In this document: positions 234 through 6,400 of the stretch, in pieces
Numbering within the stretch: position 1 is the first letter of the stretch
Layout of the letters: each line of letters opens with the position of its first letter
NCBI GenBank assembly: GCA_964016885.1
Contig: OZ024749.1
Span: forward strand, 1,488,001 to 1,552,000
Length of the DNA stretch: 64,000 bases
Direction of reading: 5' to 3'
Source: Eledone cirrhosa
Taxonomy: Eukaryota
Position numbers and translations under genes: made by a program
Notes under the pieces: model-generated
The model's database searches: none
What the model saw: the letters and a program-made list of their open reading frames with translations, nothing else
What the model was told of the DNA's origin: nothing

Positions 234-624
234 TGGCAGTATCGGTAGAGGGTCGGACGCCATGCTTTCCAGCATAGTTACGTCCCTTTATGATATGAGT
301 TCAAATCCCGCCGAGGTTAACTTTGCCTTTCATCCTTACGGGGTCGATAAAATAAAGTACCAGTAATGCACTGGGATAATTGCTGGCCTTGTGCCTAAAG
401 TAGAAACAATTATTATTATTGGCAGAGGGCGGTGTATTGGCAGTATCGGTAGAGGGTTGGACGCCGTGCTTTCCAGCAAAGAGTTACGCCCCTTTATGGA
501 CTGAGTTCAAATCCCACCAAGGTTAACTTTGCCTTTCATCCTTACGGGGTCGATAAAATAAAGTACCAGTAATGTACTGGGGTAATTGCTGGCCTTGTGC
601 CAAAAAGTAGAAACAAATATTATT
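234..624 (+). mobile_element. Two head-to-tail copies of tRNA-derived SINE family 1 (Deu/Nin-domain-like)
   Basis: A-box-like TGGCAGTATCGG, B-box GAGTTCAAATCC, core GGTTAACTTTGCCTTTCATCCTTACGGGGTCGATAAAATAAAGTACCAG, tail GGCCTTGTGCC..GAAACAATTATTATT; copies ~234-420 and ~421-624. Confidence 0.85.
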
Positions 625-3600
625 GGTGTGATCAAACGTTTTGCTCGCTCCCGTAAGTCTCCTTATTTACCTGTCGTAAATCATTTATTGTTCATTTGTG
701 TTGTCGTGTAAGGGACATAAGGCCTTGGACTTTGCTCTGTGAAGGGGAAAGTATAATGGACTTTATTTAAAATATAATAAAAAAAAAAAAAAAATTAAAA
801 AAATGGCGGAGCCACGCCCCCAAATTCGGCTGACAACGGTTTAAACGTTGAGGCGAATAACGCTGCCCCTCCCACAACAAATATGAAAACCAGCATCCCA
901 CTAGGCAGTATCGCCGACAGCAGCACCAACGACAACAACAAGGACAACAACAATGACATCAACAGCACCAACGCAAACAACAAGAACACTTTTGCTGCAG
1001 CAGCAGCCTGAGAGAGGCCATGCTTCAGCATGAACCTCTCAAACAAAGATGAAAAGTTGGCCCAGGTCTGGAAGCTCATCAAGCAAGAGTGAACCTGGGC
1101 CAACTTAACTGCACCGGTAGAAGCTACTGAAGCAGTGGAGCGCAGAACGGTGCATTACAGGTGCATCTCAGCAGAAACCAAGAGAGCAGCTTTAATTGCA
1201 CAAGCAGATGTTGAAGTCGCGCTGAGGTGCATCAGGGATGACACTGAATACATAGCGAGGGGCAGACAGTACGGCACCATTTTGGTGCTGTTTAAGTCAG
1301 AAGCCCTCGCTATGAAACATGCTATGACACCTTGCAAAACCAGCAAGGTCATAATGTACCCCTCCCACATGGGAAAAAGAACAGCTCATCTCCACATTCC
1401 CAGGATCCCACCAGGACTTGACATGTGGTGGCTTCTGGGATGTGTGATTGTGGAGGTGACACATCTCAGAAGCCACCACATGTGATAGAAGTTACAAGGA
1501 CTGCTAGAAAGGACTAGTCCGGGGTTGACTTGGAAATACTTCTCCAGATCAGGATAGAGAATATAAACACAATCCCAGACCACATCCGTCTTCAAAACAG
1601 GACGGTAATTCACATTATGACTGAGGGTAAAGGCTGCATTGTTTCGTTTGCAGAGAAAAAACCCATTTGCGAGCCTTCTGCCCTCAACTACTGAAAGATG
1701 CAAGGGGTCGAAGGGCTCCACTGCTCCCGACACCGGGGCGAGAACCACCACCAACACCAGCATCGGCAAAACCACCAGCAACAACACCAATAGAAACACC
1801 ACCACCAACATTAACCACCCAGGGGGGAAACGAGGAAAGTTGCCGAATCCCCCCCCCCCCCCCAAAATACACATCAATAAAAACTTAAACACACACAGAC
1901 CCCCTCATTTTCCAGTAGTGAAGATGAGGCAAAACCCAAATCGCAAAAAATACAAAAATGAAAACAGAAAAAGAAAAAAACTCCACAAAGCACAATAAAA
2001 CACCCACAATAAAAGATGCAGGCACCACCCACGCAAACATCTCCCCAATAACACTCATCATCACCAGAATCCCCCAAATGCAAATAACTTAAACAGATGT
2101 AAGAACAAACACACAAACATCTGAAACCACAGGCACCGTACTCACAACAAACACATACACAACCGAAACAACACCATCAAAACCATCACCACCAGTCACA
2201 CAAACAAATAAAATCACACCAACAAAACATACAAAACTTTGTGCTCATCAGAAGGGCCAACAAGGGATTGATGGCCCTTGTAGCACGAAGTGAAGAAATA
2301 CAAACAGATTTTTAAATCGAGCACATTTCGCGAATGTCACTCGATTTCTACAAAGAGATTCGAGAGAGCTTTCCTTGGAATGTGGGAACCCCAAACGTAA
2401 AACCTACATCCAGACTTTTAAAGGGGTTCCCAAAAGAAACCCACCAACTCTGGAGGTTGAACCACCCGATCTTCATAAGAGTCTGGAAGGTAAGTAAACC
2501 TTTCCTCTCTCTTTTAGCCTGCCAACATGGCCGTATTAAGAGTAGGAAGTTTAAATGTTCGAAACTTGCGATCGTCCTGGAAGCAGGGTCACCTGCTCAA
2601 TGACCTTAGGTCTCTAGAAATGGATGTAATTGCTGTCAGTGAGACCAGGATTTCCGACACGCGCGCACTAGCCCCCATTTCTAACACTATCAGATCTTCG
2701 CATCTGTTAGTTGGCCGGGAATGGGAGTTGGGGTTGCAGTGCTGTTTAGGAAAGGCCTGGATCTCAAGGTAAGGTCAATCTTCCGGGACCCGGGCAGTAA
2801 GTTGGTGGTCCTGGACGGGAACAATAGCGAAGGTGGTGGCCTTTAGTCTGGTTGCCGACTACACCCCTACCAGGGCTAGACGGCCGGTCTTCTTTAGGCG
2901 TCTGGAAGCCTTTCAGGGTACATCTCGCCCTTTACTGTTAGCGGGGGGACTGGAACAGCATCTTAGAAGCACACTGGGATTTTGTGGGAGTAGCTGATAG
3001 GAATGGGGGTAGGGGGTGGGGTGCAAAAGCCTCAAGAACCTGATCAGCCAGTTCCAACTGTCTGACAGGTACCAACTAGATTTCCCTAATGTGCCAGTGT
3101 GGACCTGGACAAACCATTTAGGGACATCTAGATTGTACTTAGATAGGTTTCTAATTAGATTAGTGGATAAGGGTAGTATAGGGTGTGCACAATTACATAT
3201 GGTCGACCTAGATAAGACGCGTAGGTTAGGACCTGGTTACTGGAAGCTGAACACTTCGTATCCGGCATGTATGGCTTACAGGGACCGGGTCAACAATTTA
3301 GTTAAGCAAAAGTTGACAGAGGGAGTCGTCAACAATAGATGGTGGTGGTGGTGGTGGTGGTGGTGGGGTGGGAGGGGGGCTCTCAAAAGAGGGATTAGAG
3401 TAATGTTGATAGGGTTTAGCGAAGAAGTAGCATTAGAGAAAAATAGAAAGGAGGGGGAGCTGGTAGATAAGTTAGACGAGCCTATTTGTAGTGGATTTGC
3501 AACTAACGTGCTAGCGGCGAGAATGGCATTAGATCATTTCTTCAATGCGAAACACGAAGGTTGCATTGTCAGAGCTAAGGCGCGTGCTCTGAGAAACAAA

Positions 3601-5753: not shown

Positions 5754-5755
5754 AG

Positions 5756-6400
5756 TAGTGGAATGGCAGTATTGGAAGAGTGCCAGACGCCATGCTTTGC
5801 AGCATAGAGTTATGGTCCTTTACGGTTTGAGTTCAAATCATGCCAAGGTTAACTTTGCCTTTCATCCTTACGGAGTCAATAAAATAAAGTACCAGTAATA
5901 CACTGGGATAATTGCTGGCCTTGTGCCTATATAAGAAACAATTATTAGTGGAATGGCAGAATCGGTAGAGTGTCAGACACCATGTTTTGCAACATAGAGT
6001 TACGGCCCTTTACGTTCTGAGTTCAAATCTTGCCCAGGTTAACTTTGCCTTTCATCCTTACAGGGTTGATAAAATAAAGTACCAGTCACGCATTGGGGTC
6101 GATTTAATCAACTTCCCCTCCCCTCAAATTGCTGGCCTTGTGCCTATATAAGAAACCATTATTATTATTTGGCAGTATCGGTAGAGGGTTGGACGCCATG
6201 CTTTCCAGCATAGTTATGTCCCTTTACGATCTGAGTTCAAATCCCGCCAAGGTTAACTTTGCCTTTCATCCTTACGGGGTCGATAAAATAAAGAACCAGT
6301 AATACACTGAGTAATTGTTGGCCTTGTGCCTAACGTAGAAACAATTAGTATTATTATTATTGGTTGTCAGAATTCGTAGAGTATCGGGGTAAATGTCATT
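5756..6400 (+). mobile_element. Three further head-to-tail copies of SINE family 1 plus a partial fourth
   Basis: Same head/core/tail as 234-624 at ~5756-5947, 5948-6168, 6169-6360; each copy starts right after the previous (ATT)n tail. Confidence 0.85.

What the first reader, a model, noticed from the sequence alone, without database searches (positions are those of the whole stretch)
234..6400. Tx1 LINE and Deu/Nin-type SINE share a 3' end and stack head-to-tail on each other's (ATT)n tails: candidate self-targeting LINE-SINE system
Seen: at least five SINE copies and one full LINE form one same-strand chain, and elements after the first start at, or a few bases after, the previous (ATT)n tail. 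The LINE end GGCCCTTGTGGACAATAAATGAAACC(ATT)n (5716-5753) aligns with the SINE end GGCCTTGTGCCTATATAAGAAACC(ATT)n (6134-6168); a similar end occurs at ~8970-9004. Known: many Tx1-clade elements are target-site specific (microsatellites, snRNA, other TEs), and SINEs borrow the 3' end of their partner LINE. Inference: this Tx1 mobilises the SINE and targets (ATT)n, so each insertion creates the next target and builds mixed arrays.
Basis: partly seen in the sequence, partly recalled or inferred. Interest (0 to 1): 0.75.

Follow-up and report, generated by a model that had tools for sequence, protein, structure and literature searches.

The report
Tx1–SINE chains built on ATT tails
In what is likely an octopus-type genome, a family of long jumping genes and a short one end in the same small motif and land at the same ATT-type sequence that their own ends carry, so copies pile up head-to-tail; the long ones likely copy the short one.

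Summary
Confirmed and genome-wide. Five SINEs, an older sixth remnant and one decayed L1-group (Tx1-type) LINE form a same-strand chain at 234-6484. The LINE's 3' end is the true family end (28 of 29 other copies). LINE and SINE share a predicted hairpin with a CTTGT loop and compensatory stem changes, 16-17 nt before the ATT tail. Several Tx1-type families start right after ATT tracts (28/28 and 17/17 5'-intact copies). In an 800-kb grid sample, neighbouring SINEs were same-strand 45 times and opposite 3 times (null about 3 each). SINEs carry ~16-bp target-site duplications that start with ATTA (24/29). Neighbours are never more alike than dispersed copies (0/12), so this is sequential insertion, not duplication. 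Corrections: the SINE needs only a short ATTAT-type seed, not an (ATT)n microsatellite (7/104); stacking is a modest 2.5-5x excess; no Deu/Nin motif was found. Self-renewing targets are known (human L1/Alu CLIQUEs; crocodilian SINEU-3). Not found in the papers searched: an ATT-targeting Tx1 lineage, an (ATCT)n-targeting sister lineage, and a Tx1-SINE pair with a shared 3' hairpin.

The parts
234..420 (+). SINE A, short form, lacks ~11 nt of the 5' head; ATT tail 409-420; no upstream TSD
   Evidence: 98-99% identical to dispersed copies
426..624 (+). SINE B, short form, full head; short tail 616-624 abutting the LINE 5' end
625..5753 (+). Decayed Tx1-type LINE with both termini: 5' UTR, ORF1 remnant from ATG 803, ORF2 remnant from ATG 2527, ~330-bp deletion near 5708, 3' end, (ATT)4 tail 5742-5753
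   Evidence: relatives give EEP+RVT_1+zf-RVT
5716..5741 (+). LINE 3' motif: predicted stem GGCC / loop CTTGT / GG(A)C, then AATAAA (5729-5734) and GAAACC
   Evidence: the family has GGCC in the second arm, this copy carries one substitution
5756..5940 (+). SINE C, short form, flanked by a 19-bp direct repeat with 1 mismatch (5751-5769 and 5941-5959) read as its TSD; the repeat includes SINE D's first bases
   Evidence: sequence; reading as a TSD is inference
5947..6169 (+). SINE D, long form (extra ~27-nt block), Pol III A- and B-box-like motifs, tail 6158-6169
6170..6361 (+). SINE E, short form, 5' head clipped, tail 6344-6361
6362..6484 (+).
   Evidence: nhmmer E 5e-5, model positions 9-142
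8911..9003 (+). 79-bp 5'-truncated 3' end of a sister ATT-tailed Tx1-type family (AACC...GGTT stem variant), separate from the chain

Best explanation
The chain was built by separate insertions of a tRNA-type SINE and a Tx1-type LINE into the ATT ends and target-site duplications of earlier copies, and the ATT-tailed Tx1-type LINEs likely supply the enzyme for both. Shown: shared 3' motif; shared ATT-type target in the same orientation; ~16-bp TSDs starting at ATTA; genome-wide same-strand stacking; neighbours not more alike than dispersed copies. Inferred steps: (a) ORF2p binds the small CUUGU-loop hairpin on its own or the SINE's RNA. (b) The APE endonuclease nicks the bottom strand at the left edge of an ATTAT(T) seed, and the freed ...ATAAT-3' end pairs with the AUU repeat next to the hairpin and primes reverse transcription. 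(c) A second nick 10-25 bp downstream duplicates the seed. Each insertion thus leaves two seeds, one on each side, both forcing the same orientation, so later insertions make head-to-tail mixed chains. LINEs sit almost always in (ATT)>=3 tracts while SINEs accept short seeds; why is not resolved (longer tail pairing or 5' joining by homology are guesses).
For: 3' end conserved in 28/29 other LINE copies. Stem pairs 1-3 paired in 95-98% of 55 SINE ends and 96-99% of 82 Tx1-type ends; pairs 3-4 switch G-C to A-T between Tx1 families; pair 2 is G-C in the SINE and C-G in Tx1; loop CTTGT shared. Apart from SINE-like ends, the best matches to a SINE-end matrix in 800 kb were Tx1-type 3' ends (ranks 3-5; identified). 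ATTATT directly upstream of 28/28 family-A 5' ends (by eye; self and one junction-less hit dropped). (ATT)>=3 upstream of 16/17 full-length family-B copies, and (TCT)n-TATT in the 17th. About 17/28 and 11/17 of these sit behind a SINE or Tx1 tail (by eye). An empty paralogue with a pre-existing ATT tract exists for L236/L238 (L094). SINE TSDs: 39/87 versus null 3; 29 non-repetitive, median 16 bp, 24 start ATTA, 6 start at a previous SINE's end. Two truncated LINE copies show the same kind of TSD (L248 15 bp, L280 13 bp). Downstream of 58 ATT-family LINE ends: 12 same-strand SINEs, 0 opposite, 10 Tx1 5' ends, versus 1 SINE behind 30 ends of the ATCT sister lineage. An uninterrupted two-ORF copy was found in the grid sample (L138).
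Against: The shared motif is only ~26 nt (14-16 ungapped matches). The SINE stem is 3 bp and is not the minimum-energy fold of either SINE end tested, nor of the window LINE's mutated end. LINE and SINE differ in target stringency. Only 2 of ~11 short truncated LINE copies show a unique-sequence TSD, and 4 of 11 show no ATT context (by eye). The SINE end scores higher against the ATCT lineage's end than against ATT-family ends. SINE A has no seed or TSD. Search-derived loci are the top-scoring copies, not a random draw, and the grid favours large contigs. No retrotransposition or binding assay.
Confidence: 0.8

Rival explanations
1. Stacking is real but the SINE is moved by another LINE (the Dong/R4-like element sharing these microsatellites, an RTE, or the ATCT Tx1 lineage); the 3' likeness is a relic or convergence.
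For: An RLE-type LINE ends in (TAA)n in the same tracts; RTE-like LINEs occur in the window; the SINE end scores best against the ATCT lineage; SINE targets are looser than ATT-LINE targets.
Against: The RLE element's tail is on the opposite strand and shows no hairpin match. SINE TSDs start ATTA, not ATCT. SINEs follow 12/58 ATT-LINE ends but only 1/30 ATCT ends. Truncated ATT-LINEs show SINE-like TSDs.
Confidence: 0.1
2. Chains arise in one event by the reverse transcriptase jumping from one RNA's 5' end onto the next RNA's 3' tail.
For: Some junctions have no spacer (L225, L227, L206: LINE end fused straight to SINE sequence); SINE A lacks its own TSD.
Against: Inner members carry their own TSDs (6 cases; SINE C here). 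Members of one chain are only 83-94% alike, as expected for insertions of different age.
Confidence: 0.07
3. The array is a local tandem duplication or incipient satellite.
For: TRF reports period ~206-214 arrays at 233-624 and 5910-6300.
Against: Copy A is 98-99% identical to dispersed copies but 87-94% to its neighbours; 0/12 adjacent grid pairs are more alike than their best dispersed matches; short and long forms alternate.
Confidence: 0.03

Closest known systems
Human L1/Alu/SVA CLIQUEs (PMC3215922; section 7 and passages read)
   Same: Mixed LINE/SINE chains with orientation bias, explained by TSDs and tails recreating the endonuclease target; tail-target pairing primes reverse transcription.
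   Different: There the target and tail are A-rich and Alu shares no 3' body with L1; here the repeat is ATT, orientation bias is stronger (3:45) and a 3' hairpin motif is shared.
Crocodilian Tx1-Mar / SINEU (PMC4494074; abstract, introduction, one results section and passages)
   Same: Tx1-clade LINE inferred to move a SINE from a shared target; tandem SINEU-3 copies sandwich a TSD through sequential insertion.
   Different: Target is a Mariner element, SINEU has snRNA heads and poly(A) tails, and no Repbase LINE matched the SINEU-1 3' half; here head is tRNA-type, target is ATT and the 3' motif is shared.
Microsatellite-targeting Tx1 elements Kibi (TC)n, Koshi (TTC)n, crocodilian (TTCC)n/(TTTC)n families; Dong (TAA)n (PMC4494074, PMC3812793 passages)
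   Same: LINE lineages specialised on a simple repeat.
   Different: (ATT)n and (ATCT)n are not among the Tx1 targets listed in those passages; no partner SINE is mentioned there. Dong-like RLE elements here use the same tracts on the other strand.
Stringent SINE/LINE pairs with a 3' stem-loop: ZfL2/UnaL2 (PMC4176376 passages); maize ZmSINE and Chlamydomonas SINEX-3 with L1-clade LINEs (PMC3747384 passages)
   Same: Conserved loop, variable compensating stem, repeat tail.
   Different: The hairpin here is much smaller (3-4 bp) and untested; that 2013 review found only 3 SINEs with L1-clade tails, and those named in the passages I saw are plant or algal.

Membership tests
L1 group / Tx1 clade LINE | Two ORFs; ORF2 with N-terminal APE endonuclease, RT and C-terminal zinc motif | tested here: met
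   Intact relative L138: ORF1 698 aa, ORF2 1139 aa; Exo_endo_phos, RVT_1, zf-RVT; window copy aligns along it
L1 group / Tx1 clade LINE | RT closest to L1-group rather than R2 or other clades | tested here: met
   PDB: human L1 ORF2p E 3e-52 versus R2 1e-21; CR1, L2 and RTE full ORF2s were not among the hits, so only a partial comparison
L1 group / Tx1 clade LINE | Placement inside Tx1 on an RT tree with named references | not testable with these tools
   No named Tx1 reference among homologues; named ones are Argonauta (65%) and cuttlefish (36%) proteins
L1 group / Tx1 clade LINE | Target-sequence preference (>20% of flanks, criterion in PMC4494074) | tested here: met
   28/28 and 17/17 ATT flanks
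tRNA-derived SINE (SINE2) | Short, dispersed, high copy, Pol III A/B boxes, TSDs, repeat tail | tested here: met
   183 hits in 800 kb; B box in B and D, A box matched in D only; TSDs. ARAGORN and Rfam find no tRNA, so the parent tRNA is unidentified
Deu/Nin SINE | Nin/Deu central domain | tested here: not met
   Two short Nin motifs from the PMC4758252 supplement match no better than shuffles (p 0.13-0.66); the full Deu consensus was not available, so a distant Deu 5' segment is not excluded
MetaSINE/MESC | Meta central domain | tested here: not met
   One short motif from the PMC4824008 supplement, p 0.56-0.96
SINEBase beta-domain SINEs / octopus OR-OK SINEs | Match to the published consensus | not testable with these tools
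   Resemblance is recalled only; SINEBase supplement unavailable
Stringent SINE/LINE pair | Shared 3' sequence with a conserved stem-loop | tested here: met
   short motif, weak predicted stability
Stringent SINE/LINE pair | Stem-loop required for ORF2p binding and retrotransposition | not testable with these tools
   needs an assay

The most novel reading that the evidence does not exclude
In octopod-type genomes a Tx1 radiation switches microsatellite targets mainly by changing its RNA tail repeat. ATT-tailed and ATCT-tailed lineages keep the same 3' hairpin, ~72% RT identity and a near-identical endonuclease hairpin-loop region, yet each inserts into the repeat matching its own tail. One of the genome's most abundant SINEs rides the ATT lineage through a minimal shared hairpin. 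Target choice would then be set by tail-primer pairing rather than by the endonuclease, making the target programmable by the tail.
Probability: 0.3. Interest if true: 0.72.

Novelty: new variant of a known kind. Interest (0 to 1): 0.52.

Why it matters
It names a likely driver for a SINE making up ~3% of this genome (26,314 of 800,000 sampled bases; on the order of 0.7 million copies if the grid is representative), and adds an animal case of an L1-group LINE sharing a 3' structure with a SINE, which a 2013 review found rare. Two sister lineages with different tails and matching targets, with an intact ATT-lineage copy at hand, make a long-standing question directly testable: endonuclease specificity versus tail-primer pairing in microsatellite targeting. 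Practically, ATT microsatellites here are largely element junctions (21 of 41 long tracts abut these elements), which matters for repeat annotation and marker design. The chain-building principle itself is known from L1/Alu.

Tried and rejected
Local duplication: rejected. Strict (ATT)n targeting by the SINE: rejected (7/104). The worry that the LINE's SINE-like end is a SINE fragment fused to a truncated LINE: rejected, since it is the family end. Deu/Nin and Meta motifs: no match. Rfam and ARAGORN: nothing relevant. Named Tx1 references for a tree: none obtained; the protein atlas gave no result. Sequencing runs: no RNA holder listed; laying four DNA runs was swamped by repeat copies and showed no interpretable empty allele. 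In the automated 5'-end tally 7 of 72 rows were false pattern matches inside the RLE element and three families had been found through ATT tails, so I rely on the counts. Insertion order from divergence was not used, because only A and D were searched genome-wide. Literature searches found no paper describing this pair or an ATT/ATCT-targeting Tx1; Repbase, Dfam and subscription papers (Ohshima and Okada 1994; Kojima and Fujiwara 2004) were not searchable and may already hold these families. The SINEBase supplement could not be read and bears on the SINE's name.

Full report
Observation. The window (G000:C9:1488001-1552000, a 3.0-Gb genome) carries on the + strand SINE A (234-408), SINE B (426-615), a LINE (625-5741), SINEs C (5756-5940), D (5947-6157) and E (6170-6343), and an old sixth SINE remnant at 6362-6484. 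Each element after the first starts at or just after the previous ATT tail. The LINE has both ends but is decayed and has lost about 330 bp just before its last 35 bases. The nearest named ORF2 relatives are from Argonauta (65%) and a cuttlefish (36%), so the host is likely an octopod; I did not try to identify it further.

The shared end is real. Of 29 other copies found with the ORF2 3' region, 28 end in the same motif and tail as the window LINE; the other is rearranged. Comparing families shows that the likeness is better described as a small hairpin than as a gapped alignment. It has a CTTGT loop, a 3-4 bp stem (GGCC/GGCC in one family, AACC/GGTT in another, GGC/GCC in the SINE), and 16-17 nt to the tail. 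Stem pairs 1-3 are paired in 95-98% of 55 SINE ends and 96-99% of 82 Tx1-type ends. SINE-versus-LINE end similarity has shuffle p between 5e-5 and 2.6e-3. A SINE-end matrix scanned over 800 kb with SINEs masked returned, after two SINE-like hits, Tx1-type 3' ends at ranks 3-5. Against this, the SINE stem is only 3 bp and was not the minimum-energy fold in the two SINE ends tested, so the structure rests on conservation and covariation, not on folding energy. The LINEs keep AATAAA in the second half of the motif; the SINE does not.

The LINE. An uninterrupted relative in the grid sample has ORF1 698 aa and ORF2 1139 aa with APE endonuclease, RT and zf-RVT; its closest solved structure is human L1 ORF2p. 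That places it in the L1 group. Tx1 membership is inferred from architecture and target preference, since no named Tx1 reference could be obtained. At least five families with different 5' ends begin directly after ATT tracts. In the two sets not chosen by their flanks, 28/28 5' ends have ATTATT just upstream (by eye; the window copy and one hit without a 5' junction dropped) and 16/17 full-length copies have (ATT)>=3, the 17th (TCT)n-TATT. About 17/28 and 11/17 sit right behind a SINE or Tx1-type tail. For L236 and L238 an empty paralogue of the host repeat with the ATT tract already present was seen in L094, so in those cases the tract pre-existed.

The SINE. Eighty evenly spaced 10-kb stretches (800 kb) gave 183 hits covering 3.3%. 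Adjacent hits were same-strand 45 times and opposite 3 times; shuffling within the same stretches gave 3.1 and 3.0; 29 of the 45 have an intact upstream 3' end. Of 87 less-diverged copies with a complete 3' end, 39 have a TSD (mismatched-pair null 3); 29 are non-repetitive, 10-25 bp, median 16, and 24 start with ATTA. Most of what looks like a tail is therefore the TSD. ATTA[TA] lies in the 30 nt upstream of 61/104 5'-intact copies (random 10%), (ATT)3 in only 7/104 (random 0.25%). Eighteen of 104 follow another SINE directly, versus 3.6% of motif clusters genome-wide or 7.1 expected from same-stretch motif density (P 4e-4). The excess is real but modest: most SINEs are dispersed.

Sequential insertion, not duplication. 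Copy A is 98-99% identical to dispersed copies but 87-94% to its neighbours; 0 of 12 adjacent full-length grid pairs are more alike than their best dispersed matches. Six TSDs begin at a previous SINE's end, and SINE C here is flanked by a 19-bp repeat with one mismatch that includes D's first bases, so C likely entered in front of D. A has no seed or TSD upstream and remains unexplained; loss of the left TSD is a guess.

Same machinery? Two short truncated LINE copies have SINE-like TSDs starting ATT (L248, L280); of about 11 such copies 7 have an ATT, tail or TSD context and 4 do not (by eye; seven rows that were internal deletions were dropped). Behind 58 ATT-family LINE ends there were 12 same-strand SINEs, none opposite, 10 Tx1-type 5' ends, 11 reverse ends of an RLE LINE and 25 others. 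A sister lineage, 66-73% identical in RT in most pairings (59-61% against one frameshifted copy), has the same hairpin but (ATCT)n tails in 25/30 copies and no (ATT)3; most of its truncated copies are preceded by ATCT repeats, and only 1/30 is followed by the SINE. One ATCT copy sits in another's tail with a 16-bp TSD (L075). Its endonuclease region corresponding to the L1 hairpin loop differs little from the ATT families (a single decayed copy, and the loop's role is from my own knowledge). The SINE end scores higher against the ATCT lineage than the ATT ones, which may reflect descent from a common Tx1 ancestor but weakens assignment to one family. The RLE-type (Dong/R4-like, name inferred from motifs and tail) LINE uses the same tracts on the other strand with a (TAA)n tail and does not fit the SINE's orientation.

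Mechanism. Shown: common 3' motif, common oriented ATT-type target, TSD geometry, stacking. Inferred from established TPRT biology: hairpin binding by ORF2p, a bottom-strand nick at the left edge of the seed, priming by pairing with the AUU repeat, and a second nick 10-25 bp away. Each insertion leaves a seed on both sides, so chains grow in one orientation at either end. Confidence 0.8; rivals are another driver (0.1), template jumping (0.07) and duplication (0.03).

Comparison. It works like human L1/Alu CLIQUEs (PMC3215922, section 7 and passages) and like crocodilian Tx1-Mar/SINEU, where tandem SINEU-3 copies sandwich a TSD (PMC4494074; abstract, introduction, one section, passages). Tx1 microsatellite targets listed in the passages I saw are TC, TTC, TTCC and TTTC; TAA is listed for Dong (PMC3812793 passages). 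A 2013 review found three SINEs with L1-clade tails (PMC3747384 passages). Octopus repeat papers list L1-Tx1, Dong-R4 and tRNA-Deu/Core SINEs without pairing them in the passages seen (PMC13282606, PMC8967140). Short published Nin and Meta motifs did not match the SINE. Nine literature searches found no description of this pair or target, but Repbase, Dfam and closed papers were out of reach.

Verdict. A real, genome-wide system; the chain-building principle is known, while the ATT/ATCT Tx1 radiation and its hairpin-sharing SINE appear undescribed in what I could search. New variant of a known kind; interest 0.52.

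Noticed in passing
L138:641-667, L127:4891-4917, L075:245-3890, L301-L330: Sister Tx1-type lineage with the same 3' hairpin but (ATCT)n tails and ATCT 5' flanks; it stacks on its own tails (16-bp TSD in L075).
   Followed up: partly
L138:3928-10000 (G000:C28:90003928-90010000): Uninterrupted two-ORF ATT-family LINE (ORF1 698 aa, ORF2 1139 aa) between ATT tracts, found in an 800-kb grid sample, suggesting recent activity.
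   Followed up: partly
L088:3-1630; reverse ends behind 11 of 58 Tx1-type tails: RLE-type (Dong/R4-like) LINE ends in (TAA)n in the same microsatellites on the opposite strand, giving tail-to-tail pairs with Tx1-type elements.
   Followed up: partly
L094 (minus strand ~1680-1950), L236, L238: An ATT tract in the 5' region of an RTE-like LINE is a repeated landing site for the Tx1-type family; the empty version is present.
   Followed up: partly
L118:4448 (+), L118 minus 6593, L077:4316: Another repeat carries a SINE-like 3' end on a different body, twice in inverted orientation in L118.
   Followed up: no
L084, L108, L081 (minus strand): A further repeat family has a weaker match to the SINE-end matrix followed by a short (CT)n run; unidentified.
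   Followed up: no
window:28605-28874 and 29569-29716: 5'-truncated SINE copies inserted head-to-head in (TA)n/TTATA-rich tracts, using ATTATA-type seeds.
   Followed up: no
window:9798-10847, 53798-57611, 59897-60523: Fragments of other LINEs (RT followed by a PHD-like finger; an endonuclease fragment).
   Followed up: no
ten loci of the grid sample, e.g. L061, L069, L127: An abundant unidentified repeat ends in (ATT)3 followed by AC(TA)n; one family-A LINE 5' end (L034) sits in it.
   Followed up: no
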